A DNA stretch of 64,000 nucleotides, taken from the IMG/VR virus record IMGVR_UViG_3300029653_000083, positions 74,236-138,235 of that record, one strand, 5' to 3'. Numbering within the stretch: the stretch's first letter is position 1; every line of letters begins with the position of its first letter. The stretch is from a virus (Duplodnaviria; Heunggongvirae; Uroviricota; Caudoviricetes). Under the pieces are notes generated by a model. That model saw only the letters and a program-made list of their open reading frames with translations. It had not been told where the DNA came from and made no database searches. The position numbers and the translations under genes were made by a program. Positions 2,750 to 63,396 of this stretch are shown piece by piece.

Positions 2750-2770
2750 TGTGAACACCCCCAGTATAAC
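2750..2770 (-). promoter_or_regulatory. conserved promoter-proximal element motif 1
   Basis: tgtgaacacccccagtataac; family consensus TTGTGTGAACAATTCCAGTATA (gene orientation TATACTGGAATTGTTCACACAAA). Confidence 0.5.
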
Positions 2771-2778
2771 ATAAACCA

Positions 2779-2803
2779 TTAAAGAGGGCAACTACCCCCT
2801 CTT
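2779..2803 (-). terminator. putative hairpin terminator overlapping stop codon of 2792..3052
   Basis: AGAGGG-loop-CCCTCT stem followed by U-rich tract on minus strand. Confidence 0.3.
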
Positions 2804-3052
2804 CACAACCTTCGCACCATACTTATCAGCCCACTGACGAGCCAACGTCTTCGCCTGTTCCCTACAAGCACGACGACTGAAAGCCGCACTGAACGTATGA
2901 GAACGCTTCATATCCCAAACCTTCCCATTCTCACTATCATGCCGACGATACAATACAACCTTCAAAGCGATGACGGAACCATACTTGTCCCGCACCTTCT
3001 CAATGACCACGACCTTCTTGTTCTTGTGGCTTTTGTCGCTATGCTGGGACAT
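2792..3052 (-). CDS. hypothetical basic small protein
   Basis: ORF track; motif 1 variant upstream. Confidence 0.45.
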   Translation of the reverse strand: MSQHSDKSHKNKKVVVIEKVRDKYGSVIALKVVLYRRHDSENGKVWDMKRSHTFSAAFSRRACREQAKTLARQWADKYGAKVVKRG

Positions 3053-3091
3053 TCCGGCTCCTCCTAAAAAAGAAAAACAGCGAGCACAATA

Positions 3092-3116
3092 TTGTGCCCA
3101 CTGTTCCAGTGTAACA
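3092..3116 (-). promoter_or_regulatory. motif 1 (variant)
   Basis: ttgtgcccactgttccagtgtaaca upstream of CDS 2792..3052. Confidence 0.4.
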
Positions 3117-3291
3117 ATAGAGATTTGGAAAACGCTAAGAACTCAGTAATCCGACTCCAACCTCCGTGCGGCACCAAGCCCATGGTCGGTCAGCCTGATG
3201 TCCTCGTGTCCCAACAGAGTACGCCAATAGTCGGCATACCCGTTATCTATAAGGGACATAGCCGCGTCCTGATTATGTTCGTTAACCTCCG

Positions 3292-3861
3292 CTAAGCGTC
3301 CACGATGGTATGCGTCGCAGAGGAGCCTTTCGGCTTTTTTATCCAATGCATTCGCCTTTCGATATAATACGAGAACATGTACTTCCGACGCTCCCAGACC
3401 GGCGAATAAATCACATACTTGATGGTGTCCGTATCCCGCAGGATGACGCTGATTTCGCCAACACTGTCCCGTTGGATGAACTGCACGATACCTCGAACGG
3501 TTAGAGAACGCCGACTCAATAATATCCGGTCGCCAAGCTGAATTCGCTGCCCAACGAAACAATCATCTAATTCGGTCAGCAGTTCCGCACCGGTCTCGAT
3601 GGACGAGTGGAAACTGTTCAGCGGGTTACGGAGAAAACTTCCAACCTTACAGTTCCAGTCGCGCTGTGCGTCGTGCAAGGTTTGGAAGCCGACTCCGCCA
3701 GATGTTTGCAAACCATTATCCACTGGACAAAAGTGGGAGTATCCCCAACCTTTCGGCAGAAAATATTGCTCGTCGTCCCAAGTGCAGTGGAGTTCAGATT
3801 TAGCCCGATACTTAAATTCGGGAATGCTGTTACAGCATGGGCATGTAAGAAGGTTTCTCAC
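3292..3861 (-). CDS. hypothetical protein with N-terminal CPCC zinc-ribbon (Lar-like restriction-alleviation fold possible)
   Basis: ORF track; GTG start overlapping stop of upstream gene, GAAAGGA RBS; overlapping 3143..3562 ORF judged spurious. Confidence 0.45.
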   Translation of the reverse strand: MRNLLTCPCCNSIPEFKYRAKSELHCTWDDEQYFLPKGWGYSHFCPVDNGLQTSGGVGFQTLHDAQRDWNCKVGSFLRNPLNSFHSSIETGAELLTELDDCFVGQRIQLGDRILLSRRSLTVRGIVQFIQRDSVGEISVILRDTDTIKYVIYSPVWERRKYMFSYYIERRMHWIKKPKGSSATHTIVDA

Positions 3862-4115
3862 CCCAGTCCTTTCTGAGTCCTTAAGAGTTCGTCCAGTTTT
3901 TCCTCGATGCTTTCCAACCTCAAGCGCAACGCCTTCTGGCTTTCGTAGATGGCCGCAACCTCTCCTGAGACTTCGTAGAGGGTTTTGTTGCCATACATGT
4001 CATGCTTCTTGTCGGCCTGTTTCTCAAGCTTCGCTATCTCCCGCTCCCGTTGCGACGGCTTGCGTGATTTCAGATAGTCCCTGCATTCGGGACTGAACAT
4101 GTCCTCGTATCCCAT
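3858..4115 (-). CDS. hypothetical protein
   Basis: ORF track; start abuts stop of exonuclease gene. Confidence 0.5.
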   Translation of the reverse strand: MGYEDMFSPECRDYLKSRKPSQREREIAKLEKQADKKHDMYGNKTLYEVSGEVAAIYESQKALRLRLESIEEKLDELLRTQKGLG

Positions 4116-4700
4116 TTAGCGGCCAAATTCCTCTCTGCGCATGGCTTCATACAGCATGTTTTCCTGAGTCGCGTCGGACAAGGCGCGATGCTCTTCCACG
4201 TCACCGATACCATAGTCGCGGATAAGCACGGCAACCTTATGGCTTGGCTTTTCGGGATGGATTTTCCGGCTCATTTCCAACGTGTCCACGAACCGGTGTG
4301 GAAAGAAGAACATTCCACCGTTCACGGTTTTCATGGCCGCGTCCAAGAAACTTAAATCGAATGACGCGTTATGCGCCATGATGATGGTTCGCGGGCCAAG
4401 CCACTTGTCGAATCGGATGATGGCTTGGCTTACGTCGGGTTGTCCGATGACCATGCTGTCGTTGATTCCGGTGAGCGAGGTGATGTATTCGGGGATTGGC
4501 TGGTGTGGGTCAATCAGTTGCTCGTATCGGTCTACGAGTTTTCCGTCATGGATTTTCACGGCTCCGATTTCGATGAGTTTAGCCCCGTTTTCGGGTTTGA
4601 AGCCGGTGGTTTCGGTATCCAAGACCACGTAATCGTAGAGTGGTGTTTTCATTGGGTCGATTCTTCTGGGGTCTCGACTTTGGTATTTGTCCCAGCTCAT
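4116..4700 (-). CDS. DEDDh 3'-5' exonuclease (DnaQ / Pol III epsilon-like)
   Basis: Exo I VLDTETTG, Exo II HNASFDLSFL, Exo III HRALSDA motifs; AAGGAGAC RBS. Confidence 0.85.
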   Translation of the reverse strand: MSWDKYQSRDPRRIDPMKTPLYDYVVLDTETTGFKPENGAKLIEIGAVKIHDGKLVDRYEQLIDPHQPIPEYITSLTGINDSMVIGQPDVSQAIIRFDKWLGPRTIIMAHNASFDLSFLDAAMKTVNGGMFFFPHRFVDTLEMSRKIHPEKPSHKVAVLIRDYGIGDVEEHRALSDATQENMLYEAMRREEFGR

Positions 4701-4725
4701 GGTGTGGTCTCCTTGGATAAGTGAA

Positions 4726-4749
4726 TGTGTGGACGTTTCTAGTATAACG
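4726..4749 (-). promoter_or_regulatory. motif 1 (variant)
   Basis: tgtgtggacgtttctagtataacg, ~26 nt upstream of exonuclease start. Confidence 0.45.
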
Positions 4750-4750
4750 C

Positions 4751-5020
4751 CTATTTGGTGATGGCCTTGACACGCCCGTCCAGAACTGTTCTTACGACAT
4801 CCTCGAAGTCCGTGCCATCAGGCAATAAGTGGGAGTCTTGGAGGTTTCCGATAATCTCCACCAGTTCCGTATGCCCGTGCGGAGTGCGCTTATAGTCGCG
4901 GGTCGCACCCGCCTTGTATGCGCGACGCAACTGTAACGCCAACTGTTCCCGTGTGAGCGTGATGTAATCGCCTTCCTCGATGGGATACCGTTCTTCCAAT
5001 TCCTCGTTGAGAATGCTCAT
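4751..5020 (-). CDS. hypothetical protein
   Basis: ORF track. Confidence 0.45.
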   Translation of the reverse strand: MSILNEELEERYPIEEGDYITLTREQLALQLRRAYKAGATRDYKRTPHGHTELVEIIGNLQDSHLLPDGTDFEDVVRTVLDGRVKAITK

Positions 5021-5046
5021 TTTTTTTGTTTTTCCTTTCTGTTTTT

Positions 5047-5442
5047 TCAGACGTACATTCCCTCATGCCAGCCGTGTAGCAAACCCCATTCGGATAGTTT
5101 CCGGAACCATTTCTCGCATTCGTCAGCCACCTTGTTGGGATAATCCAACGTCGGGTTCACGTTGAGTAAATACTGGTAGTCGTAGGGTTGGCAGAAGTTC
5201 TCGTCCAACACGTCTATCTGCCAGTCGCTACCGTCCTTGGCAATCTCGACATTCAATGTCATGTCATGGTCGGGGGAGACTGAACAGCAGAGGTACCAAT
5301 ACCCCTCACGGTGGTCAGTGAACCCCAGTCGGCGCATGGTCGAATCTTCGGCGGGACTCATGCTAAGCGCCGCATTGTTCTGATGCTTCGTGTAGGTGAC
5401 GCCTATGGTCAAGAATCGGGGCGTGTTCTGAGTGTCGAACAT
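5047..5442 (-). CDS. hypothetical protein
   Basis: ORF track. Confidence 0.5.
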   Translation of the reverse strand: MFDTQNTPRFLTIGVTYTKHQNNAALSMSPAEDSTMRRLGFTDHREGYWYLCCSVSPDHDMTLNVEIAKDGSDWQIDVLDENFCQPYDYQYLLNVNPTLDYPNKVADECEKWFRKLSEWGLLHGWHEGMYV

Positions 5443-5450: not shown

Positions 5451-5822
5451 CTATTCTTCGCTTTCGCGCAGGTCGATTACCGGAATATGTGTATCGGTGG
5501 AATAGTGGACGGAATAAGGGTCGATTGTCCTATGCCGCCAGCTGACGCCACCTTCCACCGGCCAAGCCAGCCAGCCTATGCCGTCCAAATAGTTCAGAAT
5601 GCTGACGTGGACAATCCAACGGCACCATCTTGCAGGGCATATCACGTCGAACATGGGAGTATCCTCGGTTCCCGGTCGGCAGGAATGCCGTTGCCAAGAA
5701 CGCAGATACACGCGATAAAGCGCATAGGAATCATCTGTTGGCAGTTCCTCAGTGTCGAACACCGCGCGAGTTGGGTGGTCATCGAAGAGGATTCGTTTGC
5801 CGAATTTAGTTGCTTGATTCAA
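5451..5822 (-). CDS. hypothetical protein (TTG start)
   Basis: The first 17 codons of the 5451..5873 ORF are just the translation of motif 1 and its leader. AAGGAGG RBS precedes TTG at 5820-5822. Confidence 0.45.
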   Translation of the reverse strand: MNQATKFGKRILFDDHPTRAVFDTEELPTDDSYALYRVYLRSWQRHSCRPGTEDTPMFDVICPARWCRWIVHVSILNYLDGIGWLAWPVEGGVSWRHRTIDPYSVHYSTDTHIPVIDLRESEE

Positions 5823-5857
5823 TGCGTCCTCCTTTTTGGTTTTTGTCTTTGTTTTTG

Positions 5858-5880
5858 TTGTGAACAATCCCACTATAACA
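5858..5880 (-). promoter_or_regulatory. motif 1
   Basis: ttgtgaacaatcccactataaca. Confidence 0.5.
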
Positions 5881-5911: not shown

Positions 5912-6367
5912 CTAAGCCAGCGTTCGATTAAAAAAGAACTCTCTCTTCCCACCTCGATACAAACCCACACGCGAGCCAGACAAACGAAAACCAAAACGAC
6001 GGAAGAAACCCTCATACACCGGCAACAGTTCCTCCGGCACCGTCACCAGAGGAAACTGCTCGCACAGCAAACCCAACGCATATTCGACCAGAGCGGAACC
6101 GACTCCTCGATTCCGAAAGCCCTCGTAAACGCATAAAGTGCAAATCTTCCGTTCCGATGAAGTTCTCTTGAGAACGCAAAACCCCGCCAACCCATCATCC
6201 GTGCGGGCTAAAAGAATCGCACGGTCTTTCCCCAAGGAGGGGAGAACCGTGCGGTCGAACCACGTATCAAAGCCGGGATAATACGTTCGGATTATCTCCG
6301 GAATAGGAATAGAAGCCGCAGTTTCAGCATCCCGAACTACGTCAATCCTCAACGAAACTGAACACAT
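5912..6367 (-). CDS. GNAT family N-acetyltransferase
   Basis: Acetyl-CoA binding motif RNRGVGSALV; typical GNAT length. Confidence 0.7.
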   Translation of the reverse strand: MCSVSLRIDVVRDAETAASIPIPEIIRTYYPGFDTWFDRTVLPSLGKDRAILLARTDDGLAGFCVLKRTSSERKICTLCVYEGFRNRGVGSALVEYALGLLCEQFPLVTVPEELLPVYEGFFRRFGFRLSGSRVGLYRGGKREFFFNRTLA

Positions 6368-6587
6368 GAAAATCCGTCACACACTCGACATTGACATGAG
6401 TCGTATCATCCGGCCAAACATATAAAACCGGCATATAGCCGGACAGTTCTCGAACGGCGAGATTGCTAAAACCGTCCAAGTAGAGGGTTCCGGCCATGGG
6501 TTTGCCGTTCCAGTTGAAAATTGCGGGCTTGCCTTCGAGTTCCTTCCAGTTAATTCCGTCTTGGTAGGGGAGTTCTTTTAAGGTCAT
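6342..6587 (-). CDS. hypothetical protein
   Basis: ORF track; AAGGAAAA RBS; degenerate motif 1 at 6601-6627. Confidence 0.45.
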   Translation of the reverse strand: MTLKELPYQDGINWKELEGKPAIFNWNGKPMAGTLYLDGFSNLAVRELSGYMPVLYVWPDDTTHVNVECVTDFHVFSFVED

Positions 6588-6668
6588 TGGTTTTCCTTCT
6601 TTGGTGTGGACTATCTCACTCTAACACAACCGGAGTGGCGTGAAGAAGAAAAATCCCCCTCCCCACAT

Positions 6669-7212: not shown

Positions 7213-7587
7213 TCAGTAGCAGTCATCGCACCAACCGGTGTCCCCGCACGGATTCTCGTTTTCGTCGGTTAGCAGACAACCGCAACCGATGCAATACATG
7301 TTGTCCGGATTGTCGGACGAAGCGAAAAAACCTTCCCCGACAATGTTACCAGCCAAGTCGGTGATGGTGTAGATTGCCCGAGTATCGGCTTCCGGTGCGG
7401 GATAGCCGGACATGCCTAGAATCCTGTTGTACACGTTCGTCAGTAGAGTGCGAACGTTTCCCGCCTGACGAGTCCCATTCACAATGGGAGCCGTCAAATG
7501 GTCGAAGAATCCTACCGTCGTATCCCAAGAATGCTGACCTTCGTGGATTTCAATTTCCAGCTTTTCCCTACCGTCGGTGAATCGCAT
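7213..7587 (-). CDS. hypothetical Cys-rich C-terminus protein
   Basis: ORF track. Confidence 0.5.
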   Translation of the reverse strand: MRFTDGREKLEIEIHEGQHSWDTTVGFFDHLTAPIVNGTRQAGNVRTLLTNVYNRILGMSGYPAPEADTRAIYTITDLAGNIVGEGFFASSDNPDNMYCIGCGCLLTDENENPCGDTGWCDDCY

Positions 7588-7597: not shown

Positions 7598-7960
7598 CTA
7601 CAATTCCCTCATGGCCTTGTCTAAATCGGACACAATCGCGTCATACAGTCCGTCAACGTTCAACGATTCCAGCTTGTGCGACGGCAAATCCACGGGAGCG
7701 TATTCCCCGTCGTCGAAAGTCCAATGCTCGACCGAAACCGTGTATACTCCTCCACTCCAACGGTAGGAACGTCTGCCGTTATGTTGCGAGTCTGCCACAA
7801 GATAGTATTCGAACATCTTGCCCATGTATGGGCATTGGAATGCGACTTCGATTCCGTCTCCGAAGATGGCGTGGGTGGCGTGTGCGCCGGTCACGTATGG
7901 GATTTTGACGAGCTTGTCAATGAGTTTCCGGTAGGTGTCTTCGCTGATTTTCGAGTACAT
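7598..7960 (-). CDS. hypothetical protein
   Basis: Internal ATG (MYSKISED) with AAAGGA RBS; motif 1 at 7997-8020. Confidence 0.5.
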   Translation of the reverse strand: MYSKISEDTYRKLIDKLVKIPYVTGAHATHAIFGDGIEVAFQCPYMGKMFEYYLVADSQHNGRRSYRWSGGVYTVSVEHWTFDDGEYAPVDLPSHKLESLNVDGLYDAIVSDLDKAMREL

Positions 7961-7996
7961 TCTTTTTCCTTTTTCTGTATGGGTCAAACCCTTGTT

Positions 7997-8020
7997 TGTG
8001 TGGACGGTTCCAGTATATCA
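7997..8020 (-). promoter_or_regulatory. motif 1
   Basis: tgtgtggacggttccagtatatca. Confidence 0.5.
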
Positions 8021-8156: not shown

Positions 8157-9011
8157 TCAGCCGTGCAACGCGGTGATGATTTCGTCAGCGGCCTTACGGA
8201 CATGCTCGGCGGTGGAACGTACAAGCTTGGGGTCGGCATCGCTCCACCCCGCCACGTAGCGGATGGAATACTCGCCGGTGTCCATTCCCATGTATTTGGC
8301 CACCACGTACGCGACGCTTTCCGCCTCGGTCTCATAGATGCCGCGATGCCGACCGTATTCACCTTCCGGCAACCCCTGATGGAGAAGCATGTGGGCCGTT
8401 TCATGCAGGATGGTCTTGGCGTCCTGCCTCGGGCTGTTCTGCTCGTTGAGCATGATTCGTCTGCTTCCATCCATCGTGGTGTAGCCTTTGACGTCCCTTC
8501 CCATCGACTCATGCCCCACTCGCCAATGTTTGGATTCGAGCCAAGCGGTCATGCGTCCGACGAGTCCGAGCGCGTCTGCGCCTTCAAGCTCGGACGGCTT
8601 CATCTGTTCGATGGGGTCGGTCTCCTTGTCGATGGGGTCGGTCTGGGATACGTCGAACACCGTCAAGATGGGATACCAGACTTTTTGGATAGGGTCGCCG
8701 TTCTCGTCTAACTGTGGGTTGCCGTCTTCGTCCTTGACGGTTCTGGTGCTGAAGCCGAAGATTTTCATGCCGTGTTCGCCTTTGCGCACGACGCGCCCGC
8801 GTGTCTGCCATTGGCGGAATCCGGCGACCAGCGATGAGTTGCCGTTCGATTGCATGAGCATTAGCAGGATGTTGTTCCAGCTATATTGGTGGAAACGTCC
8901 CATGAAATCGAGGTAGCGCTGCCAAGTGCCGGAGTTTCGCAGCTCCTTCACGCCGGTTTCGATGTCCTTGCGCAGTTCTTCGATTCGTTCCCCGTGTTGT
9001 TTGCTTGCCAT
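8157..9011 (-). CDS. ardC: ArdC-like anti-restriction protein (ArdC-N ssDNA-binding domain plus zincin HExxH peptidase domain)
   Basis: N-terminal WQRYLDFMGRFHQYSWNNILL..AGFRQWQTRGRVVRKGE typical of ArdC-N/DUF1738; C-terminal ILHETAHMLLH metallopeptidase motif. Confidence 0.8.
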   Translation of the reverse strand: MASKQHGERIEELRKDIETGVKELRNSGTWQRYLDFMGRFHQYSWNNILLMLMQSNGNSSLVAGFRQWQTRGRVVRKGEHGMKIFGFSTRTVKDEDGNPQLDENGDPIQKVWYPILTVFDVSQTDPIDKETDPIEQMKPSELEGADALGLVGRMTAWLESKHWRVGHESMGRDVKGYTTMDGSRRIMLNEQNSPRQDAKTILHETAHMLLHQGLPEGEYGRHRGIYETEAESVAYVVAKYMGMDTGEYSIRYVAGWSDADPKLVRSTAEHVRKAADEIITALHG

Positions 9012-9054: not shown

Positions 9055-9315
9055 TCAGCAGCAGTATTCGTTGACTGCGTTGACGAGTTCAGCCATGCTC
9101 ATGCCGTACACGTCGCTGTGGCGGGGGTAGATGTCTTTTGCGAAGAGTCTGTTTTGCATGATAGTGCGGGCTTCGGGACTTTGAACGAGTTTCACGCTTT
9201 CGGGGAAGGTGCTTGAGAGGGCGTTGTCGTTGATTTGTTTGGCGTATTCGGCTGCTTGTTTTTTGGGCATTTTCTTGACGTTGATTGCGCCGCCGATGTA
9301 GTGGATTGCGTACAT
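9055..9315 (-). CDS. hypothetical protein
   Basis: Internal ATG with AAGGAG RBS; upstream 19 codons of track ORF are motif 1 read-through. Confidence 0.45.
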   Translation of the reverse strand: MYAIHYIGGAINVKKMPKKQAAEYAKQINDNALSSTFPESVKLVQSPEARTIMQNRLFAKDIYPRHSDVYGMSMAELVNAVNEYCC

Positions 9316-9346
9316 GTTATGTGCTCCTTTTTGCCTATCGCTCTTT

Positions 9347-9369
9347 ATGTAAACAATTCCACTATAGCA
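9347..9369 (-). promoter_or_regulatory. motif 1
   Basis: atgtaaacaattccactatagca. Confidence 0.5.
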
Positions 9370-9448: not shown

Positions 9449-10415
9449 TTAATCAGACAAACCGGCACGGGCACGCATCTTGCGTTTAATCTCGCTACCC
9501 TTGGCGAACAGGCGCTCCATACGGGCCACGGTCTGCAACGCCTTCTTATACTCCTCCAATCGAGAAGAGATTTGCCAATTACGAGGTTCCGCCAACGACT
9601 CCTCAATCAGAGAATCGGGAACATCCCACATAAAGGACATAATCCAACGGCGGTTTTCCCCGCCCATGCGACGCCACAAGCGCACGGCACGCTTACCTTT
9701 GACCCATTCCGGATTATTAAACAAGACTTGGATGGCGGATTCGTCGGAGAGGGAGTCCAGCAATGGGTCTATGTCCGTTTCTTCCGCCAACGGTGCTGAT
9801 AGGATGCGGATGGTTTCATCATCGCTTTTCACCCAATGCTCGAAGCAGAGCCTATCGGCCAGCTTGTTTTCCACCATGTAGCGGATAACGTCGTAATCCG
9901 TTTCCTCCCAGTACAGGCTTGCAACGGTATGCTTTGCGGCGAGCTTGCGTAGTTCGGGGTCTTTGTCCTTAGCGAGGCTGGTCGCGGTCTTGTAGTTGAG
10001 TTTTCCCCTTGTATTCCAAATATTCGGCCACTTTGCGGCGAACGTCCCGACTCCGGTCTTTCAACACGGTTTCGCGTAATCCGTCGTATACGTTTCCGTC
10101 CTTGACTTCCATGTTGTATTCCAGTTTGCAGTTGACGTAGTAGTGGCGGAACGGTAGGGGGAGAGGGAATATTCTTCCACTCTGGTAGATGTTCTTAATG
10201 CTTTCCAGCAGGTCGATTCCCTTGTTGGTAAGCTTCCAACGGTCGCGTTCCTTGTTTAGTTCGATTAGGTTGGCTTCCTTGAATTTATCTAAGGGCTTCT
10301 GGTCGATGTATGCGCTCAGTCGTTGTGAATGGGTTTCATTGTCGAAGTCTTCGAAGCAGTAAACGAGGTTGGCAGTCCACTTTTTGGTAAGACTGTTGAT
10401 TGCGTCGTTGTCCAT
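9449..10415 (-). pseudogene. HEAT-repeat protein paralog of 11331..12254, split by a frameshift at a G4A4 homopolymer (~10000-10010)
   Basis: ORFs 9969..10415 and 9449..9877 together align colinearly with the 307-aa protein of 11331..12254. The N-terminal LPLPFRHYY.. and C-terminal DVPDSLIEE..LEEYKKAL segments are shared. A HEAT-like reading (KDKDPELRKLAAKH) continues in another frame across the 91-nt gap. Confidence 0.5.
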
Positions 10416-10437
10416 GGTTTCTCCTTCTCGGCATATC

Positions 10438-10461
10438 TTGTGTGAACAATTCCAGTATAGC
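10438..10461 (-). promoter_or_regulatory. motif 1
   Basis: ttgtgtgaacaattccagtatagc. Confidence 0.55.
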
Positions 10462-10576
10462 CTAAGTTGAGATAAAACACAACACGCAACCAAGCCAAAA
10501 CGAAGACGCAATCCCCGCCCATACGAAAAAAAAGGAATACGCCCACATGATTTTCCTGCGGGCGTATTCCCATGTT

Positions 10577-10885: not shown

Positions 10886-10904
10886 TGTGGCTCTTTCTCT
10901 CATA

Positions 10905-10930
10905 TTTGTGTGAACAATTCCAGTATATCA
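10905..10930 (-). promoter_or_regulatory. motif 1
   Basis: tttgtgtgaacaattccagtatatca. Confidence 0.55.
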
Positions 10931-11330: not shown

Positions 11331-12254
11331 TCAGCCAATCTCGTGCTCGGCACGCTCCCAAATCTTCCGGCGAATCTCACTGTCCTCGGAAAACATGAAG
11401 CCAAGCTCCAACACTTGACGGACGGCTTCTCGGTATTCCTCCAAACGGTCATGCAAGGCCATGTACGCGTCGCTCTTGAACGCCTGATTGATGAACGAGT
11501 CCGGCATGTCGCGCATGACCTTGACCAGTCTGTAACGTCCCACCTCGTCCGCGTTCTCCCAAGCGTTCATGACACGCTCACAAGTGGCCCACTGCGGCTC
11601 GTCGGCCAGCACATGCGCCACATCCTGCGGGTTAAGACGGGCCAACACTTCATCCACCTTGCCGTCTTCGGTCAGGAGAGCCGCCTGAACGCGAATCTGA
11701 CTGTTGGGATTGTCCAGCCAATGTTCGACGCATTCCTTATCGAAGTTATGGTTATAGATAAGGGTTTTGACCACACGCTCGTCCGACTCCTCGAAGAAGA
11801 GGTGAGGGTCTGCGTTCTTTGCCGCCATGAGTCGAATCTGATAATCCTCGTCGTGGGCCAAACCGTTCGACGTTTCCTTGTCGAGCTTGCTGAACTTGTT
11901 GAGCATTGTGGCCGCTTTCTTGCGAATCTCGGCGCTCCTGTCATGTAGGGCCACTTTGGATAGTTCCTTGACGGGTAGTTTCTTTTCGTCGTATACGCGC
12001 CAGTCGAAGTAGTAGTTACGGACTTTCAGGGGTAGTTCGGAGAGTTTGCCGGAGTTGAAATGCTGTCTAATGTTGGCGAGTTCGTCTTCGCCTGTTTGGG
12101 TGAGAGTCCAGTCGCCCGTCTCGTTTTCCTGAATGAGTCCGGCTTTGGCGAGTTTGGTGATGTCGCGGTCGGGGAATACTCGGCGTTCGGGTTCGCGCTC
12201 GAATCGCATGAATTCGTAGATTGCGGTTTCGTTCCAGTTGATGTTGTCGCTCAT
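11331..12254 (-). CDS. HEAT-repeat protein
   Basis: Repeated D.s..IR..AA..L motifs (HDRSAEIRKKAATML, DEDYQIRLMAAKNA, NPNSQIRVQAALL); start MSDNINW with AAGGAG RBS; first 56 codons of track ORF are motif 1 read-through. Confidence 0.6.
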   Translation of the reverse strand: MSDNINWNETAIYEFMRFEREPERRVFPDRDITKLAKAGLIQENETGDWTLTQTGEDELANIRQHFNSGKLSELPLKVRNYYFDWRVYDEKKLPVKELSKVALHDRSAEIRKKAATMLNKFSKLDKETSNGLAHDEDYQIRLMAAKNADPHLFFEESDERVVKTLIYNHNFDKECVEHWLDNPNSQIRVQAALLTEDGKVDEVLARLNPQDVAHVLADEPQWATCERVMNAWENADEVGRYRLVKVMRDMPDSFINQAFKSDAYMALHDRLEEYREAVRQVLELGFMFSEDSEIRRKIWERAEHEIG

Positions 12255-12276
12255 TTCTGCTCCTTTTGGTTTCCTG

Positions 12277-12303
12277 TTTGTGTGAACAGTTCCAGTATAG
12301 TAC
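12277..12303 (-). promoter_or_regulatory. motif 1
   Basis: gtttgtgtgaacagttccagtatagta. Confidence 0.55.
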
Positions 12304-13809: not shown

Positions 13810-13835
13810 TTGTTCTCCTTGGTTGGCTCCGCCTG

Positions 13836-13863
13836 TTTTATGTGGACATTTCCAGTATAGCAC
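13836..13863 (-). promoter_or_regulatory. motif 1
   Basis: gttttatgtggacatttccagtatagca. Confidence 0.5.
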
Positions 13864-14138: not shown

Positions 14139-14174
14139 TTTTCTCCTTTTGGTGACGGGTTTTGCGAACCCTTG

Positions 14175-14200
14175 TTTGTGTGAACAATTCCAGTATACAT
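14175..14200 (-). promoter_or_regulatory. motif 1
   Basis: tttgtgtgaacaattccagtatacat. Confidence 0.55.
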
Positions 14201-15157: not shown

Positions 15158-15185
15158 TTTTGTTCCTCCTTGTTGGAATCTATCT

Positions 15186-15210
15186 TTTGTGTGAACAATC
15201 CCAGTATACC
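15186..15210 (-). promoter_or_regulatory. motif 1
   Basis: tttgtgtgaacaatcccagtatacc. Confidence 0.55.
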
Positions 15211-15269
15211 ATGTTTGGTAGAAAAACAAAAACAGCCCACCTCCCAAATCAGGAAGACGGGCTGAAAAG

Positions 15270-16094: not shown

Positions 16095-16122
16095 TTTTTA
16101 CTCCTTGTGTTTCAGACTTCTT

Positions 16123-16148
16123 TTTGTGTGAACAATTCCAGTATACCT
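16123..16148 (-). promoter_or_regulatory. motif 1
   Basis: tttgtgtgaacaattccagtatacct. Confidence 0.55.
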
Positions 16149-16591: not shown

Positions 16592-16620
16592 TTTTTCTCC
16601 TTATGTCCTTCAACTTACTT

Positions 16621-16645
16621 TTGTGTGAACGATTCCAGTATACCT
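16621..16645 (-). promoter_or_regulatory. motif 1
   Basis: ttgtgtgaacgattccagtatacct. Confidence 0.55.
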
Positions 16646-32786: not shown

Positions 32787-32837
32787 TGACTTTTTCCTTT
32801 CTTTTTTGTGGGAGTACCCACTATGACAGAACTTGTT

Positions 32838-37110: not shown

Positions 37111-37237
37111 TGTTTCTGTGGTCTTTCCCGTTCTTGTGGAATGTTTTGTGTGGGCGAGGTCAGCTTAACACATTAGGTGGGGGTGTGCAACCGTTCGGGG
37201 ATTCGCGGTCGGATGATTTGCGTTCGACCATACCCTT

Positions 37238-37264
37238 TGTTATACTGGAATCGTCCACAAAAAA
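37238..37264 (+). promoter_or_regulatory. motif 1 (plus orientation)
   Basis: tgttatactggaatcgtccacaaaaaa in divergent intergenic region. Confidence 0.5.
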
Positions 37265-37310
37265 AGGGAGCCACACACTCCCAACCACGCCAGAAAAAAA
37301 AGAAGAAACC

Positions 37311-55544: not shown

Positions 55545-56414
55545 TTAGGATACGAACGGGTTCATCGGCTCTTCATCGTCTGCCACGCCCGCGTCCGTGT
55601 CGGCATCATCGTTAGCCGACTGGATGGAAGGGAGACTGGGACGGACTATGACACCGGTTTCCGTGACTTCGACTTTCAATTCCGGCCATGCGAGCTGAAT
55701 CTTCTCCAACGCTCTCTTGAACTTGCGTCTGAATTCACGCATCGGATACCCGTCATACTTGAACTGCATCAACAGGGCTTCCCATGTCACGCGCGTCTCA
55801 TGGCGCATGGCATGGGCACGGAACGCGAGCCACTGGTATACGTCCAACGCGAGGGCATCGTTGCGAAGCTGGCGAACGATGGATGGGTTGAGAGGAACGC
55901 AGTTCTCCGTCAGCAGTGCCCACATCTCGGGGGAGAACTTTATGTAAGACTTCTTCGCCCCGTCATCGTCGTAGTTGAGTGACACTATGTTGGCAACGAA
56001 GAAAGAGTGGGCTGTGAATCCGCCAGTGGACCAGTTTTCAAGGACGATGGAGGTTGTCGCTAGATTCCTGACCATGTTCATTACCGTCTCCTTGCTGGAC
56101 CCTGAATAGTGGATTCCAGTGCTCTTGCAGAATGAACGATAGGTGTCGTCCAAGTAGACGGTATGATTCTCTGCATCCACACAGTCGCTACTGTTCTTGA
56201 TGAGAGAACGGATGTGGATGAGGAACATTCTGGGGGCTGCTCCGTATGCCCATTCTCCGGTGGAGGCCGAGACTGTGATTGACGAGTTTCCGTTAATTTT
56301 TCTCATGGACTGAGATTCCGGTTTCGACTGCGGCAGGAAACTCAGCTTAGACATAACCGACGGCGTGTAGTTGTATGTATTCGACTTGTAGAGGTCTTTG
56401 CTATGATTGGTCAT
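55545..56414 (-). CDS. plasmid replication initiator (Rep, iteron-type)
   Basis: wHTH-like ALDVYQWLAFRAHAMR..W..L..QF; iterons directly upstream. Confidence 0.65.
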   Translation of the reverse strand: MTNHSKDLYKSNTYNYTPSVMSKLSFLPQSKPESQSMRKINGNSSITVSASTGEWAYGAAPRMFLIHIRSLIKNSSDCVDAENHTVYLDDTYRSFCKSTGIHYSGSSKETVMNMVRNLATTSIVLENWSTGGFTAHSFFVANIVSLNYDDDGAKKSYIKFSPEMWALLTENCVPLNPSIVRQLRNDALALDVYQWLAFRAHAMRHETRVTWEALLMQFKYDGYPMREFRRKFKRALEKIQLAWPELKVEVTETGVIVRPSLPSIQSANDDADTDAGVADDEEPMNPFVS

Positions 56415-56656
56415 GTGACCACGACTCCTTCAGTGTTAGGTGGTTGCCATTCCCCGGCTGGTTCCAACAGTGCGGGGATTTTCTTTTCTCAGAACAGTAT
56501 ACGTCACTACCTACCCCTTATAGATTCTTTTCTACCCTCCGTCTTTTTGTAGCTTCGAACTGCTTGCGAAAAAGGTCGAACGGGGCATGAGGAAGTGCCA
56601 CAGAACGTGAGAAAGCGGAACCAAAAGTTGGAACTTCTGACACACATAGACAAAAA

Positions 56657-56741
56657 AGTGGGCACTTTCGACACGGAAAGTGGGCACTTTCGACACGGAA
56701 AGTGGGCACTTTCGACACGGAAAGTGGGCACTTTCGACACG
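56657..56741. repeat. iterons: 3.8 tandem copies of 22-bp AGTGGGCACTTTCGACACGGAA
   Basis: Perfect direct repeats read directly; ~240 bp upstream of rep start. Confidence 0.85.
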
Positions 56742-60027: not shown

Positions 60028-60053
60028 TGTTATACTAGAAGCGTTCACACAAT
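60028..60053 (+). promoter_or_regulatory. motif 1
   Basis: tgttatactagaagcgttcacacaat. Confidence 0.5.
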
Positions 60054-60082
60054 AACAGAAAAAGCCAGCCAAGGAGAAAAAC

Positions 60083-60454
60083 ATGAGCAACTACTTCAAC
60101 AGCATCGAACATCAAATCAACCTCATGCTCGACAGGGAACAAGACCTCCAAGACGAACAGGAACAGCGCCTACGGGATATTCACGACGGCATCGGAGACT
60201 ACGTGCTGTTGCCCGAAGGCGACCCGTGGAACATCGATGACTACGAGCAAGACCCACAGCCCACCAACGTCAACAACACTTGCAGTCACGGACTCTATGT
60301 TGACGAAGGTGTGAAATCTGGAACCATGTATCATCTCAACCCTGACCTCGGACTGTGGGCGGCTTGTGACGACTACGAGGACATAGAAAAAATGGTCAGG
60401 GAAGGCAAAACGCTCACCCAGCCCATCGACGATTACGATTCGAAGCTCGCCTGA
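60083..60454 (+). CDS. hypothetical acidic protein
   Basis: ORF track; AAGGAG RBS. Confidence 0.5.
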   Translation: MSNYFNSIEHQINLMLDREQDLQDEQEQRLRDIHDGIGDYVLLPEGDPWNIDDYEQDPQPTNVNNTCSHGLYVDEGVKSGTMYHLNPDLGLWAACDDYEDIEKMVREGKTLTQPIDDYDSKLA

Positions 60455-60497
60455 GAAAGAATTTTTCCTGCAACCTTCCTTGTTTGCGAAAAACTAC

Positions 60498-60523
60498 GTT
60501 ATAGTGGAACCAGTCACAAACAA
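60498..60523 (+). promoter_or_regulatory. motif 1
   Basis: cgttatagtggaaccagtcacaaaca. Confidence 0.5.
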
Positions 60524-60536
60524 GAAAGGTTCCTTT

Positions 60537-61937: not shown

Positions 61938-61974
61938 GCTTAGAAAAACCCCAAAACCTCTGAAAGGAGCAGCA

Positions 61975-62418
61975 TTGGACGAAGAATCCTCCACCCAACG
62001 TTTCCGTGTCCTCATGGCCGGTATCAGCGAAGGTGAGACCAGAATCCTCTACAACATCGAAAATGGAAGGTTGACCGCCGACATTCTCAAAAGCAACATC
62101 GGCAGACGACTGCTGGATGCCGGACTCATCCGACGTAACGGGCAATCAGCCCCGTCCCTCACCAAGGATGGCATGCGCCTCGTATCCACGCTCGCCCAAG
62201 GCGAGGCAGACCGTCCAATCCGACTATACGAGCGCAACAGCGAAACGCTGCTCCGCCAAGCCGGACAGGGAACGGCCAACGCATACAAGACCGGTTTCGA
62301 AAACGCCGCCGTCGAACTGTTGACCGACCGGCTTGTCCGACTTGACATCGCCTCCGGAACCCTCACCCTGCTTCCTGCGGGAACGGAACTCCTGTCCAAG
62401 CTCGACAAGGCGGCTTGA
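61975..62418 (+). CDS. hypothetical protein
   Basis: AAAGGAG RBS. Confidence 0.5.
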   Translation: MDEESSTQRFRVLMAGISEGETRILYNIENGRLTADILKSNIGRRLLDAGLIRRNGQSAPSLTKDGMRLVSTLAQGEADRPIRLYERNSETLLRQAGQGTANAYKTGFENAAVELLTDRLVRLDIASGTLTLLPAGTELLSKLDKAA

Positions 62419-62419
62419 C

Positions 62420-62623
62420 ATGCTGGGCTGGCTGACTCAACAGAACGTGCTTGTGGCGATTGCTATTGGAGCCATCATCCTACTGCTCATGTTCCTCATC
62501 CCCGCCGTCGAGGAACTGGTCGGCACGTATACTCCGTTGGGAGAATTCTGCGAAAGGCCGAACATGAGATGGGCTGTGGTCATCCTGACCATCGTAGCGG
62601 TTCTCACGGTAGTGGTCATCTGA
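62420..62623 (+). CDS. small membrane protein (68 aa, 2 TM)
   Basis: ATG directly after stop of upstream gene. Confidence 0.4.
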   Translation: MLGWLTQQNVLVAIAIGAIILLLMFLIPAVEELVGTYTPLGEFCERPNMRWAVVILTIVAVLTVVVI

Positions 62624-62638
62624 CTTTTTCCCTTGACG

Positions 62639-62666
62639 GGGACGGCTTGATGCCGTCCCTTTTTTG
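62639..62666 (+). terminator. rho-independent terminator
   Basis: GGGACGGC-ttgat-GCCGTCCC followed by TTTTTTG. Confidence 0.75.
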
Positions 62667-62738
62667 TTTCCCGCATCAAGTATGGGACAGTGTTCCAGCC
62701 GACTAATCTAGGAAAGGAAAGACTCGAAAGGTGGAAAC

Positions 62739-63023
62739 GTGAAAGGCTTCCTAAAGAACCTATTGGCTTTGACCGGGCTGGCGTCCATCATCACCATGCT
62801 CGGCTCCCTCGCATATGTGGATAAGAAACTACATGATGTGGGCAACGAATACAAGTACGGCCCCGCACGGCATCTGGAGTATTTGAGCGCGCTGTTGCAC
62901 TCCTTCAACCGTTCTATAGATGTTATTGCCGCCGACACGCATCGGAAGGTGTGCGATGAGGAGAATCGGAAGTATGACCGTTTGGAGGATGAGCGGGAGA
63001 GGGCTTGGAGCGCGGCCCGCTGA
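62739..63023 (+). CDS. hypothetical secreted/membrane protein
   Basis: GTG start, signal-like N-terminus. Confidence 0.4.
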   Translation: MKGFLKNLLALTGLASIITMLGSLAYVDKKLHDVGNEYKYGPARHLEYLSALLHSFNRSIDVIAADTHRKVCDEENRKYDRLEDERERAWSAAR

Positions 63024-63050
63024 GTATTTGGTTTTCTTTGCGTCTGTCTA

Positions 63051-63077
63051 TGTTATAGTGGAACTGTTCACATAAAA
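63051..63077 (+). promoter_or_regulatory. motif 1
   Basis: tgttatagtggaactgttcacataaaa. Confidence 0.5.
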
Positions 63078-63095
63078 CAGATTCGAAGGAAGACT

Positions 63096-63353
63096 ATGAA
63101 CCAAAAAGTCCTCATCACTCTCAACAACGGAGCGAAACGTATCGTATACCGTGACGACCTCTGCCACGAGCTGGCCGACCTGCTCCGGCTCTACCTGCAC
63201 GCCGACGCGTTGCCGGGAACAGGGGAACGTTGGGAACTGTTGAGGACGCTTGCATCCACTCTCATTGGTCGCGCTATCGAAAAAGGGCTTTTTGAGGACT
63301 GCGCCCGCGTGAACGTGTATCCGGTTTCTTTCCAAATGGTTCGGCCTGATTGA
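63096..63353 (+). CDS. hypothetical protein
   Basis: GAAGGAAG RBS. Confidence 0.5.
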   Translation: MNQKVLITLNNGAKRIVYRDDLCHELADLLRLYLHADALPGTGERWELLRTLASTLIGRAIEKGLFEDCARVNVYPVSFQMVRPD

Positions 63354-63368
63354 CATATTCAACAAACT

Positions 63369-63396
63369 GAGTTACAGTGGAACTGTTCACACATAT
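63369..63396 (+). promoter_or_regulatory. motif 1
   Basis: gagttacagtggaactgttcacacatat. Confidence 0.5.

What the first reader, a model, noticed from the sequence alone, without database searches (positions are those of the whole stretch)
2750..63396. About 20 copies of a conserved ~23-bp gene-proximal element (motif 1) forming a plasmid-wide regulon
Motif 1 has the consensus TTGTGTGAACAATTCCAGTATA (gene orientation GTTATACTGGAATTGTTCACACAAA). It recurs 25-45 nt upstream of the start codons of at least 20 separate small genes or operons. On the minus strand: 2750, 3092, 4726, 5858, 6601 (degenerate), 7997, 9347, 10438, 10905, 12277, 13836, 14175, 15186, 16123, 16621. On the plus strand: 37238, 60028, 60498, 63051, 63369; a degenerate copy lies near 40535. 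It is always co-oriented with the downstream gene and followed by an RBS. It is not palindromic. It contains a -10-like TATACT followed by about 17 further conserved nt, which is unusual for a housekeeping-sigma promoter. It looks more like a dedicated promoter (alternative sigma or phage-type RNAP) or a promoter plus operator for one regulator. Many ORF-caller N-terminal extensions (YTGIVHTK, YWNCSHK, IYPNVLYWK) are simply this motif translated.
Basis: seen in the sequence. Interest (0 to 1): 0.8.

Follow-up and report, generated by a model that had tools for sequence, protein, structure and literature searches.

The report
Shared promoter box of bifidobacterial megaplasmids
About 20 small genes and operons in this window start with the same 28-base promoter module, which was already described in 2024 on the related Bifidobacterium megaplasmid pMP7017; this is a diverged new lineage of it, and the factor that reads its conserved box is still unknown.

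Summary
There are 20-22 co-oriented, intergenic copies of tGyTATAsTGGAAyTGTYCACAYAAAA, against about 0.01-0.1 expected by chance.

The window is not a phage. It is a distant relative of the Bifidobacterium conjugative megaplasmid pMP7017, with syntenic backbone proteins at 30-69% aa identity. Dineen et al. 2024 (PMC10832533) already reported a 34-bp motif overlapping the -10 on that plasmid, in 19 copies driving about 24% of its genes. A matrix trained only on pMP7017 sites finds 20 of the window's copies.

The anatomy looks like a housekeeping-sigma promoter: a weak -35 TTG at 16-18 bp, TG, and TATAsT. It is fused at an invariant 6-nt spacing to an asymmetric box, GTYCACAYAAA, across the predicted start site. 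I found no sigma or RNA polymerase gene in the window, so the "dedicated polymerase" reading is not supported.

My best reading is promoter plus operator for one plasmid-encoded factor, which remains unidentified. An RNA-leader role or a factor-free promoter part are not excluded.

One new point: homology breakpoints between related plasmids pile up exactly in the motif, about 5 times the density in other intergenic DNA. The motif therefore also marks the junctions of shuffled gene cassettes.

This is a new member of a known kind, of moderate to low interest.

The parts
2744..2771 (-). Motif copy TGTTATACTGGGGGTGTTCACATAAAAA. Heads ORF 2026-2619.
   Evidence: 32.3 bits with the pMP7017-trained matrix. 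A terminator-like hairpin at 2805-2780 lies just upstream.
3091..3116 (-). Degenerate copy TGTTACACTGGAACAGTGGGCACAAT. Heads ORF 2792-3052.
   Evidence: Read directly from the sequence. It overlaps hairpin 3107-3074 and falls below the matrix threshold.
4722..4749 (-). Motif copy. Heads the DnaQ-like 3'-5' exonuclease gene 4116-4700.
   Evidence: 17.7 bits. Pfam RNase_T match at 7e-32. The pMP7017 orthologue 82026-82622 also carries a copy, at 81973.
5853..5880 (-). Motif copy. Heads small ORFs 5451-5654, 5047-5442 and 4751-5020.
   Evidence: 20.1 bits; 41.6 bits with the window matrix.
6599..6626 (-). Degenerate copy with TAGAGT as -10. Heads 6342-6587 and the GNAT gene 5912-6367.
   Evidence: 15.5 bits; 31.8 bits. 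GNAT assignment from Pfam.
7993..8020 (-). Motif copy. Heads 7598-7960 and 7213-7587.
   Evidence: 27.4 bits. Homology with L078 starts exactly at TATACT.
9342..9369 (-). Motif copy. Heads 9055-9315 and the ArdC-like gene 8157-9011.
   Evidence: 26.6 bits. Pfam ArdcN and Peptidase_M78 matches. Terminator 9435-9403 lies upstream.
10435..10462 (-). Motif copy. Heads 9969-10415.
   Evidence: Exact 22-mer match; 19.9 bits.
10903..10930 (-). Motif copy. Heads a small ORF whose start codon lies about 20 nt downstream of the box.
   Evidence: Exact 22-mer match; 25.3 bits. Terminator 11001-10967 lies upstream.
12275..12302 (-). Motif copy. Heads 11331-12254.
   Evidence: 23.7 bits. Ten homology breakpoints fall at 12290-12299.
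13835..13862 (-). Motif copy of the pMP7017 type (GTCCACATAA). Heads 13501-13809.
   Evidence: 41.8 bits. Homology with L037 ends at the downstream edge of the box. Terminator 13926-13904 lies upstream.
14173..14200 (-). Motif copy. Heads the 66-aa membrane ORF 13938-14138.
   Evidence: Exact 22-mer match; 15.2 bits.
15184..15211 (-). Motif copy. Heads 14663-15157.
   Evidence: 21.8 bits. A strong terminator at 15264-15233 lies about 20 nt upstream.
16121..16148 (-). Motif copy. Heads the DUF2786 gene 15270-16094.
   Evidence: Exact match. The pMP7017 DUF2786 orthologue 27466-28245 has a copy at 28296.
16618..16645 (-). Motif copy. Heads 16250-16591 and is divergent from the AAA_16 ATPase gene 16758-17915.
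   Evidence: 17.1 bits. pMP7017 has the same divergent arrangement, with a copy at 173731 and the ATPase gene at 173878.
32801..32828 (-). Weak copy TGTCATAGTGGGTACTCCCACAAAAAAG. Heads 32610-32786, the SPFH gene and the pilin/sortase/adhesin cluster.
Evidence: 15.2 bits; 25.2 bits.
37143..37170 (-). Weak copy. Heads the 36886-37110 ... ParB-like nuclease ... DnaB (32838-34178) operon.
   Evidence: 12.0 bits; 24.4 bits. The orthologous position in pMP7017 (56114, plus strand) is a strong copy.
37238..37265 (+). Motif copy. Heads the long transfer operon, which includes the IetA-like ATPase, a ParA-like gene, the 886-aa coupling-protein-like ATPase and the 1335-aa membrane protein.
   Evidence: 34.8 bits. 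Orthologous to the pMP7017 copy at 56076 (-).
60028..60055 (+). Motif copy. Heads 60083-60454.
   Evidence: 20.5 bits. The orthologue pMP7017 34788-35150 has a copy at 35202.
60497..60524 (+). Degenerate copy GTTATAGTGGAACCAGTCACAAACAAG. Heads the ORFs at 60.5-61.9 kb.
   Evidence: 29.9 bits with the window matrix. The orthologous pMP7017 region has a copy at 36124.
63051..63078 (+). Motif copy. Heads 63096-63353.
   Evidence: 30.5 bits. A homology breakpoint falls at 63075.
63370..63397 (+). Motif copy with TACAGT as -10. Heads 63418-63681.
   Evidence: 11.3 bits; 33.7 bits.

Best explanation
The motif is the family-specific promoter module of pMP7017-type bifidobacterial conjugative megaplasmids.

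Upstream half. This is an ordinary housekeeping-sigma (sigma-A) promoter of the extended -10 kind: a weak -35 TTG about 17 bp upstream, TG, then TATAsT. This is shown by its anatomy here and by the RNA-seq published for pMP7017.

Downstream half. Exactly 6 nt after the -10 hexamer lies an asymmetric 11-12-bp box, GTYCACAYAAA(A). It would span +1 to about +11 if transcription starts at its G. That start site is inferred, not measured.

Proposed mechanism (inferred). The box is the binding site of one plasmid-encoded, sequence-specific protein that sits on the start site of every backbone and cargo operon. It is most likely a repressor and probably binds as a monomer or asymmetrically. One factor could then switch transfer, replication-helicase, pilus and anti-restriction/establishment cassettes together.

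Second consequence. Because every cassette begins with the same ~28 bp, the motif also acts as the crossover point where gene cassettes are exchanged between related plasmids. The coincidence of breakpoints with the motif is shown; the recombination mechanism is inferred.

Confidence by step:
- Sigma-A promoter module homologous to the pMP7017 motif: about 0.9.
- Cassette junction: about 0.7.
- DNA operator for a plasmid-encoded factor: about 0.45.
For: - Copy number and chance: 13 near-exact copies against 0.01 expected; 20 real copies found with a matrix trained only on pMP7017 sites, against 0.125 in shuffles.
- Replicon identity: the 886-aa coupling-type ATPase is 59% identical to those of six Bifidobacterium megaplasmids. 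Window 37-61.6 kb is syntenic with pMP7017 56-35 kb at 30-69% aa identity.
- Published precedent: a 34-bp motif overlapping the -10, in 19 copies driving 56 genes, absent from bifidobacterial chromosomes, and called a likely TF site (PMC10832533).
- Orthologous genes keep the motif in both lineages although proteins have diverged to 30-56% identity. Examples are DUF2786, the DnaQ-like exonuclease, 60083/34788, and the divergent pair 37143/37238 matching 56114/56076.
- Sigma-A features: TG in 57-69% of copies; TTG at 16-18 bp in 52% against 15% in shifted controls. Information peaks at -35 TT (0.6-0.7 bit) and runs near 2 bits from TATAsT to CACA.
- Rigid coupling: the hexamer-to-box gap is 6 nt in 14/14 window sites, 20/21 pMP7017 sites and 191/193 IMG/VR sites.
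- The box almost never occurs without the -10: 13 and 23 occurrences against 0.45 and 1.15 expected, with few orphans.
- The motif is confined to these plasmids: in PLSDB only the six Bifidobacterium megaplasmids carry it, with 15-19 places each. The window-type pattern hits only 1 contig in 185,579 species genomes.
- Junctions: breakpoint density is 7.7 per 100 bp in the motif, 1.4 in other intergenic DNA and 0.46 in coding DNA. Homology stops exactly at either edge of the motif in L078 and L037.
- Terminator-like hairpins lie within 40 nt upstream of about half of the copies in 1-17 kb.
Against: - No regulator has been identified. None of the window's ORFs has a significant DNA-binding domain match.
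- The best conserved candidate lies outside the window: an XRE-like/ImmA pair (pMP7017 24932-26028; L039 5299-6113). In pMP7017 it has a 17-bp palindrome upstream rather than the box.
- The box is asymmetric and single, which is unusual for classical dimeric operators.
- Several motif promoters are among the most highly transcribed units of pMP7017 in steady state. This does not fit tight repression.
- An invariant 6-nt spacing is equally what one expects if the box must sit at the very 5' end of the RNA, or if all copies descend from one duplicated part.
- The start site has not been mapped at nucleotide resolution.
- BLAST alignments naturally run through a shared motif, so breakpoint pile-up at its edges shows that cassette boundaries coincide with the motif. 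It does not show that recombination happens there.
Confidence: 0.5

Rival explanations
1. RNA-level leader. The sigma-A promoter is as described, but the conserved box acts after transcription. GUYCACAYAAAA would be the obligatory 5' end of all plasmid mRNAs. It would be recognised by a plasmid-encoded RNA-binding protein, RNase or small RNA, or would set mRNA stability or translation. It would then work as a "tag" marking plasmid transcripts.
For: - The invariant 6-nt spacing puts the box exactly at the predicted +1.
- The box is asymmetric and always co-oriented with the gene.
- Leaders are short, A-rich and unstructured, 33-38 nt.
- Two pMP7017 boxes without a -10 (60373 and 107051) sit at the canonical ~30-33 nt from an RBS and ATG, inside transcribed regions.
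Against: - No conserved structure: fold z-scores run from -0.74 to +0.70.
- The apparent pairing of 5' GUUCA with AUGAAC/AUGAGC start regions shows no compensatory change. GTCCA sites have 0 of 44 and 0 of 19 GRY second codons.
- No antisense copy of the box suggests a partner RNA.
- Conservation continues upstream of +1 (G at -6/-5), which an RNA role does not explain.
Confidence: 0.2
2. No dedicated factor. The 28 bp is simply a strong, -35-independent promoter "part" (extended -10, G-rich discriminator, favourable initial transcribed sequence). It spread with gene cassettes and is kept uniform by recombination or gene conversion between copies.
For: - The motif coincides with cassette junctions.
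- Each lineage has its own homogenised consensus, GGAATTGTTCACAC against GAATATGTCCACAT, as concerted evolution predicts.
- Motif promoters include highly expressed units.
- Cassettes at 75-99% aa identity are shared between lineages whose backbones are only 30-69% identical.
Against: - Eleven consecutive positions downstream of the -10 stay near 2 bits across lineages whose proteins share only 30-59% identity, while all other intergenic sequence is randomised. RNA polymerase contacts are not known to need that much specificity.
- Strong chromosomal promoters of bifidobacteria lack the box (PMC10832533).
- Motif-headed units differ widely in expression. For example, the cas genes are mostly silent.
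Confidence: 0.15
3. Dedicated transcription machinery. The whole ~28 bp is the promoter of a plasmid-encoded alternative sigma factor or phage-type RNA polymerase.
For: Contiguous conservation over ~26-28 bp, strict orientation and restriction to the plasmid resemble T7-type promoters.
Against: - No Sigma70 or RNA polymerase domain in the window's ORFs.
- The large proteins are an adhesin, a membrane T4SS-type protein and a coupling ATPase.
- No sigma factor or RNA polymerase is annotated on pMP7017. Its large unknown proteins read as surface proteins or a VirB4-like ATPase.
- The motif carries canonical sigma-A features at canonical spacing.
Confidence: 0.05
4. The motif is primarily a site-specific recombination site, analogous to an integron attC. 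The promoter-like look would be incidental.
For: Breakpoints are concentrated in the motif.
Against: - No integrase or resolvase domain in the window.
- No inverted-repeat or hairpin architecture.
- The motif also heads conserved backbone operons that are not shuffled.
- RNA-seq places transcript starts at it in pMP7017.
Confidence: 0.05

Closest known systems
34-bp promoter-overlapping motif of Bifidobacterium breve megaplasmid pMP7017 (Dineen et al. 2024, Microb Biotechnol 17:e14405; PMC10832533)
   Same: - Position-for-position homologous: AYATGYTATACTGAATATGTCCACATAAAA against tGTTATACTGGAAyTGTTCACACAAAA.
- Same 6-nt gap between the -10 hexamer and the box, and the same distance to the RBS and start codon.
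- Similar copy number.
- Same orthologous genes downstream.
- Same plasmid backbone.
   Different: - The window belongs to a separate lineage that is absent from PLSDB. Its G+C is 52.8% against 57.4%, and backbone proteins are 30-69% identical.
- The consensus differs at about 5 positions: GG for GA, AT for TA, and T/C and C/T in the box.
- The paper did not report the rigid spacing, the -35 and TG statistics, or the junction role.
PeSL (promoter-early stem-loop) mobile regulatory cassettes of T4-type phages (PMC2839356; PMC4122927)
   Same: - A repeated composite terminator/promoter unit precedes many small, mostly unknown ORFs in a plastic region.
- The repeats coincide with the insertion, deletion and replacement junctions between relatives.
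   Different: - This is a plasmid, not a phage.
- The conserved part here is the -10 plus a start-site box, not a -35/-10 early promoter plus stem-loop.
- The motif also heads conserved backbone operons.
Stoperator/operator sites of Cluster A mycobacteriophages, bound by a monomeric immunity repressor (PMC9283540; PMC6550527)
   Same: - Also on a mobile element of an actinobacterial host.
- Also short, asymmetric sites present in tens of copies, all oriented with transcription, and a single element-encoded protein controlling the whole genome.
   Different: - Stoperators lie mostly away from promoters, inside transcribed DNA, and stop elongation. Here the box is locked 6 nt from a -10 in over 95% of cases.
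- No homologue of that repressor was detected by sequence among the candidates tested.
Global plasmid regulons with repeated operators (IncP-1 KorA/KorB, IncN CUP/ArdK, inc18 omega heptads). Named from my own knowledge, not checked in papers here.
   Same: One plasmid-encoded factor is thought to act at many promoters of transfer, maintenance and anti-restriction genes.
   Different: - Those operators are palindromes or heptad arrays at variable positions. Here there is a single asymmetric box at a fixed position.
- The regulator here is unknown.
T7-type single-subunit RNA polymerase promoters. Named from my own knowledge.
   Same: About 23-28 bp of contiguous conservation spanning the start site, with strict orientation.
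   Different: - They need a cognate polymerase, which was not found here.
- The motif has sigma-A -35, TG and -10 features.

Membership tests
pMP7017-family 34-bp promoter motif (Dineen 2024) | Sequence matches the consensus AWAYATGYTATACTGAATATGTCCACATAAAAWA | tested here: met
   A matrix built only from 26 pMP7017 sites gives 21 hits (20 of them real copies) at >=10 bits, against 0.125 in shuffles. About 5 lineage-specific substitutions.
pMP7017-family 34-bp promoter motif (Dineen 2024) | Overlaps a -10 element and lies within ~60 bp upstream of a start codon with an RBS | tested here: met
   Start codon at a median 50.5 nt after the first T of TATAsT, with an RBS in 16 of 18 copies.
pMP7017-family 34-bp promoter motif (Dineen 2024) | Many copies spread over a pMP7017-type megaplasmid backbone | tested here: met
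   20-22 copies in 64 kb. Backbone synteny with pMP7017 at 30-69% aa identity.
pMP7017-family 34-bp promoter motif (Dineen 2024) | Absent from chromosomes and restricted to these plasmids | tested here: met
   1 contig hit in 185,579 species genomes. In PLSDB only the six Bifidobacterium megaplasmids carry it.
pMP7017-family 34-bp promoter motif (Dineen 2024) | Transcripts start at the motif | not testable with these tools
   No RNA data exist for this lineage. For pMP7017 the evidence is RNA-seq coverage only.
Housekeeping-sigma (sigma-70/sigma-A) extended -10 promoter | -10 hexamer TAnnnT preceded by TGn | tested here: met
   T0 97%, A1 100%, T5 100%. TG at -15/-14 in 57-69% of copies.
Housekeeping-sigma (sigma-70/sigma-A) extended -10 promoter | -35 TTGnnn at 16-18 bp | tested here: met
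   Weak but position-specific: 52% against 15% in shifted controls, with 17 bp the commonest spacing in the window lineage. Information content 0.6-0.7 bit.
Housekeeping-sigma (sigma-70/sigma-A) extended -10 promoter | Start site 6-8 nt after the hexamer | not testable with these tools
   Inferred only. G is present at 96% at the predicted +1.
Phage-type RNA polymerase or alternative-sigma promoter | Cognate polymerase or sigma gene encoded on the element | tested here: not met
   No such Pfam domain in the window's ORFs, and none annotated on pMP7017. The rest of this plasmid, outside the window, was not seen.
Stoperator-type asymmetric operator (Cluster A mycobacteriophages) | Short asymmetric site, many copies, oriented with transcription | tested here: met
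   No conserved dyad, and all copies are co-oriented with their genes.
Stoperator-type asymmetric operator (Cluster A mycobacteriophages) | Most sites lie away from promoters, within transcribed DNA | tested here: not met
   The box is 6 nt from a -10 in 14/14, 20/21 and 191/193 cases. Only a handful of orphans exist.
Stoperator-type asymmetric operator (Cluster A mycobacteriophages) | Cognate two-domain monomeric repressor | tested here: inconclusive
   The XRE-like candidates have no sequence match to solved repressors. No structure comparison was made.
PeSL-like mobile regulatory cassette | Composite terminator plus promoter preceding small ORFs in a plastic region | tested here: met
   Terminator-like hairpins lie within 40 nt upstream of about 7-8 of the 15 copies in 1-17 kb. 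These are small, mostly unknown ORFs.
PeSL-like mobile regulatory cassette | Repeats coincide with replacement/indel junctions between relatives | tested here: met
   39 of 163 breakpoints fall in 505 bp of motif. That is 5.5 times the density in other intergenic DNA and 17 times that in coding DNA. Examples.
Global plasmid repressor regulon (KorA/KorB, omega type) | Identified regulator gene and a palindromic or tandem-repeat operator | tested here: not met
   The box is single and asymmetric. No regulator was identified.

The most novel reading that the evidence does not exclude
The GTYCACAYAAA box is not a classical operator. Instead it is a plasmid-wide mark read in an unusual way, in one of two forms:
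- It is the obligatory 5'-terminal leader of every plasmid mRNA, recognised by a plasmid-encoded RNA-binding factor. That would let the plasmid treat its own transcripts differently from host ones.
- It is bound by a monomeric stoperator-type silencer that has been recruited to sit at +1 of every promoter.

In either form, the same 28 bp also serves as the homologous-recombination anchor that lets megaplasmids swap promoter-equipped cassettes.
Probability: 0.15. Interest if true: 0.7.

Novelty: new member of a known kind. Interest (0 to 1): 0.35.

Why it matters
pMP7017-type megaplasmids were reported in about 10% of the microbiome samples mined, mostly from infants and/or mothers (PMC10832533). 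They carry anti-restriction, CRISPR, toxin-antitoxin, pilus and transfer genes.

If one box-reading factor controls a quarter or more of the plasmid, it is the master switch for transfer and establishment of the largest known bifidobacterial mobile element. The 28-bp module would also be a ready-made, plasmid-specific expression part for Bifidobacterium engineering.

The window shows that the module is conserved in a second, uncultured lineage, so it is under strong selection. It also shows that the module marks the seams at which cargo cassettes are exchanged. That could explain how these plasmids diversify their defence and anti-defence cargo.

The basic discovery, however, is already published.

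Tried and rejected
- **Phage origin.** Megablast and tblastn against phage records found nothing. PHROGs hits were weak. Relatives are filed as "viral" in IMG/VR, but the backbone is that of a conjugative plasmid.
- **Dedicated polymerase or sigma.** No such domains were found. The 1335-aa and 886-aa proteins without Pfam hits are a membrane T4SS-type protein and a Walker-A coupling ATPase.
The nearby perfect 22-bp x4 repeats (56655-56741) are unrelated to the box.
- **Clusters of TCCACA heptads, as in inc18 omega.** Only one cluster exists in pMP7017 and none in the window.
- **Pairing of the leader's 5' end with the start codon.** It appears in minimum-free-energy folds but shows no compensatory change, so I rejected it.
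- **CRISPR/Cascade targeting of the 34 bp.** I discarded this on inspection of the per-position information content: the less-conserved positions do not recur every sixth base, as type I-E targets would be expected to show (from my own knowledge). This is an argument from pattern, not a formal test.
- **The box as an alternative -35 (TTCACA), or the GGAAC as an ECF -35.** No -10 partner sits at the right distance.
- **Regulator hunt.** NCBIfam, PHROGs, Pfam and PDB sequence searches of the conserved small proteins gave nothing significant. The proteins searched were 37558-38677, 40599-41363, 36886-37110, the AAA_16 ATPase and the XRE-like/ImmA pair from related loci.
- **Rfam.** No RNA family was found in the window.

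Full report

Yes. The 22-mer TATACTGGAATTGTTCACACAA occurs 13 times with up to 3 mismatches, against 0.01 expected. An iterated position matrix recovers 21-22 sites.

All real sites are intergenic and co-oriented with the next ORF. Each is followed by an AAGGAG-type ribosome-binding site and a start codon 43-56 nt after the first T of TATACT.

- Nineteen of the 21 listed positions are confirmed.
- 3092 is a degenerate copy that overlaps a hairpin.
- 40535 has only a -10-like AATACTGG and no downstream box.
- Two weak copies were missed, at 32801-32828 (-) and 37143-37170 (-).
- The translated-motif remark is correct (YTGIVHTK and related strings).

**2. What is the replicon?**

Nucleotide searches of plasmid and phage records found nothing. 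Protein content points to a Gram-positive conjugative element:
- DnaB, a ParA-like protein, a SpaA/Cna-B pilin, a class C sortase and a 1792-aa adhesin.
- ArdC, a DnaQ-like exonuclease and DUF2786.
- A RepA_C replicase.

The 886-aa Walker-A membrane ATPase is 59% identical to proteins of six Bifidobacterium megaplasmids, including pMP7017 of B. breve JCM 7017. Window 37-61.6 kb is syntenic with pMP7017 56-35 kb at 30-69% aa identity.

More than 100 stretches from IMG/VR contigs of 100-217 kb carry the window-type motif, and many are 85-99% identical to the window. The window is therefore a second, so far uncultured lineage of the pMP7017 megaplasmid family. The "viral" label of its relatives is probably a misclassification.

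**3. It is already described.**

Dineen et al. 2024 (PMC10832533) combined RNA-seq with motif searching on pMP7017. They reported:
- 19 copies, predicted to drive 56 genes (24.1% of coding capacity).
- Presence in pMP7017 homologues and absence from bifidobacterial chromosomes.
- An interpretation as a likely transcription-factor site. No factor was named.

My scan finds 26 copies on pMP7017. A matrix trained only on those finds 20 of the window's copies, against 0.125 hits in shuffles. The two consensus sequences align position for position.

Orthologous genes carry the motif in both lineages. These are DUF2786, the exonuclease, 60083/34788, and the divergent pair that heads the transfer and helicase operons. 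In PLSDB the motif exists only on the six Bifidobacterium megaplasmids, at 15-19 places each. The window-type variant occurs on none of them. No other paper in the library contains the box sequence in a relevant context.

**4. Anatomy (new detail).**

I pooled 295 unique sites from related loci, 18 from the window and 26 from pMP7017. Conservation is contiguous from TG at -15/-14, through TATAsT and a G, to GTYCACAYAAA.

- **Upstream half.** It behaves like a housekeeping-sigma promoter. TG is present in 57-69% of copies. A TTG lies 16-18 bp upstream in about 52% of copies, against 15% in shifted control windows.
- **Spacing.** The gap between the hexamer and the box is exactly 6 nt in 14/14, 20/21 and 191/193 cases.
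- **Coupling.** The box hardly ever occurs without the -10.
- **Predicted start.** With the usual 6-7 nt from hexamer to start, transcription would begin at the G of the box (96% G). The box would then span +1 to about +11. This is inferred, not measured.
- **Symmetry.** The box has no dyad that is conserved between lineages.
- **Leaders.** They are short, A-rich and unstructured.

**5. How does it work?**

A dedicated polymerase or sigma is not supported. No such gene exists in the window or in the pMP7017 annotation, and the sigma-A signals are present.

Eleven near-invariant positions persist after the -10 in lineages whose proteins share only 30-59% identity. That calls for a sequence-specific reader.

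I favour a DNA-binding factor sitting on the start site (about 0.45). It is probably a repressor that binds asymmetrically, by analogy with monomeric actinophage immunity repressors (PMC9283540).

Points against:
- No regulator was found.
- Several motif promoters are highly expressed in steady state.
- The rigid spacing fits equally well a box that must be the 5' end of the mRNA.

Two tests bear on that RNA rival. A leader/start-codon pairing seen in the folds failed a covariation test. No structure or antisense partner was seen.

A factor-free "strong promoter part" kept uniform by recombination cannot be excluded. It explains the depth of conservation poorly.

Candidate factors conserved in both lineages are listed here, but none is supported beyond conservation:
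- An XRE-like/ImmA pair outside the window.
- The AAA_16 ATPase at 16758-17915, which lies divergent from a motif copy in both lineages.
- The small proteins at 37558-38677.

**6. A second role: cassette seams.**

In 1-17 kb almost every small ORF or ORF pair has its own motif. About half of these also have a terminator-like hairpin within 40 nt upstream.

I aligned the window to related loci and counted internal homology breakpoints:

| Region | Breakpoints per 100 bp |
|---|---|
| Motif | 7.7 |
| Other intergenic DNA | 1.4 |
| Coding DNA | 0.46 |

In L078, homology begins exactly at TATACT. In L037, it ends exactly after the box.

Some cassettes are 75-99% identical in protein between the two lineages, although backbones are only 30-69% identical.

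This mirrors the PeSL promoter/terminator cassettes that mediate modular shuffling in T4-type phages (PMC2839356; PMC4122927). One caveat applies. Alignments run through any shared motif, so the data show that cassette boundaries coincide with the motif. They do not show where strand exchange occurs.

**7. Verdict.**

- The element is a new lineage-variant of a published, plasmid-family-specific promoter motif.
- What this analysis adds: the rigid spacing, the sigma-A statistics, conservation at orthologous promoters across deep divergence, the exclusion of two RNA ideas, and the junction role.
Finding it is the one question of real interest left.

Noticed in passing
window 55545-56414 (-) and 56655-56741: A RepA_C-type replicase (34% aa identity to a pMP7017 RepA) lies next to four perfect 22-bp direct repeats, AAAGTGGGCACTTTCGACACGG. 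These are probably the iterons of a replication origin.
   Followed up: partly
window 38968-39960 (+): An AAA ATPase inside the transfer operon matches IetA of the Iet anti-phage system (PADLOC E = 5.5e-62). No IetS-type protease gene is seen next to it.
   Followed up: partly
window 19909-21138 (-): A stand-alone reverse transcriptase (Pfam RVT_1). It cannot be assigned to a specific defence RT class, and Rfam finds no group II intron or retron RNA nearby.
   Followed up: partly
window 23061-31209 (-): A sortase-dependent pilus/adhesin cluster: a SpaA/Cna-B pilin, a class C sortase and a 1792-aa RCC1/SdrD-repeat surface protein. The weak motif copy at 32801-32828 lies upstream of it.
   Followed up: partly
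IMG/VR loci L002-L102 (contigs of 100-217 kb): The close relatives of this window are catalogued as viral contigs. Their backbone is that of a conjugative megaplasmid (coupling ATPase, VirB4-like protein, RepA, ParA), so this is probably a misclassification.
   Followed up: partly
pMP7017 187.1-189.5 kb against L067, L010 and L033: A block of small genes shares 75-99% aa identity between the two plasmid lineages, while backbone genes share only 30-69%. This suggests recent cassette exchange between the lineages.
   Followed up: no
L039 about 5040-5300; also L044, L053 and L102: Upstream of an XRE-like/ImmA gene pair in the window lineage lie two back-to-back degenerate motif promoters. They are accompanied by one or two extra GTCCACACAA-like boxes, tandemly duplicated in L044. 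In pMP7017 the same gene pair has a 17-bp perfect palindrome upstream instead.
   Followed up: partly
pMP7017 60354-60385 and 107051: These are boxes without a -10. One lies in a short intergenic gap of the dnaB operon and is preceded by two further TCCACA repeats. The other lies inside an annotated HTH gene, 33 nt before an internal RBS and ATG. They could be decayed promoters or boxes that work independently of a promoter.
   Followed up: no
window 16758-17915 (+) and pMP7017 173878-175044: A conserved AAA_16 ATPase (52% aa identity) is transcribed divergently from a motif copy in both lineages. Its only weak similarity to a solved structure is to the DnaA AAA+ domain.
   Followed up: partly
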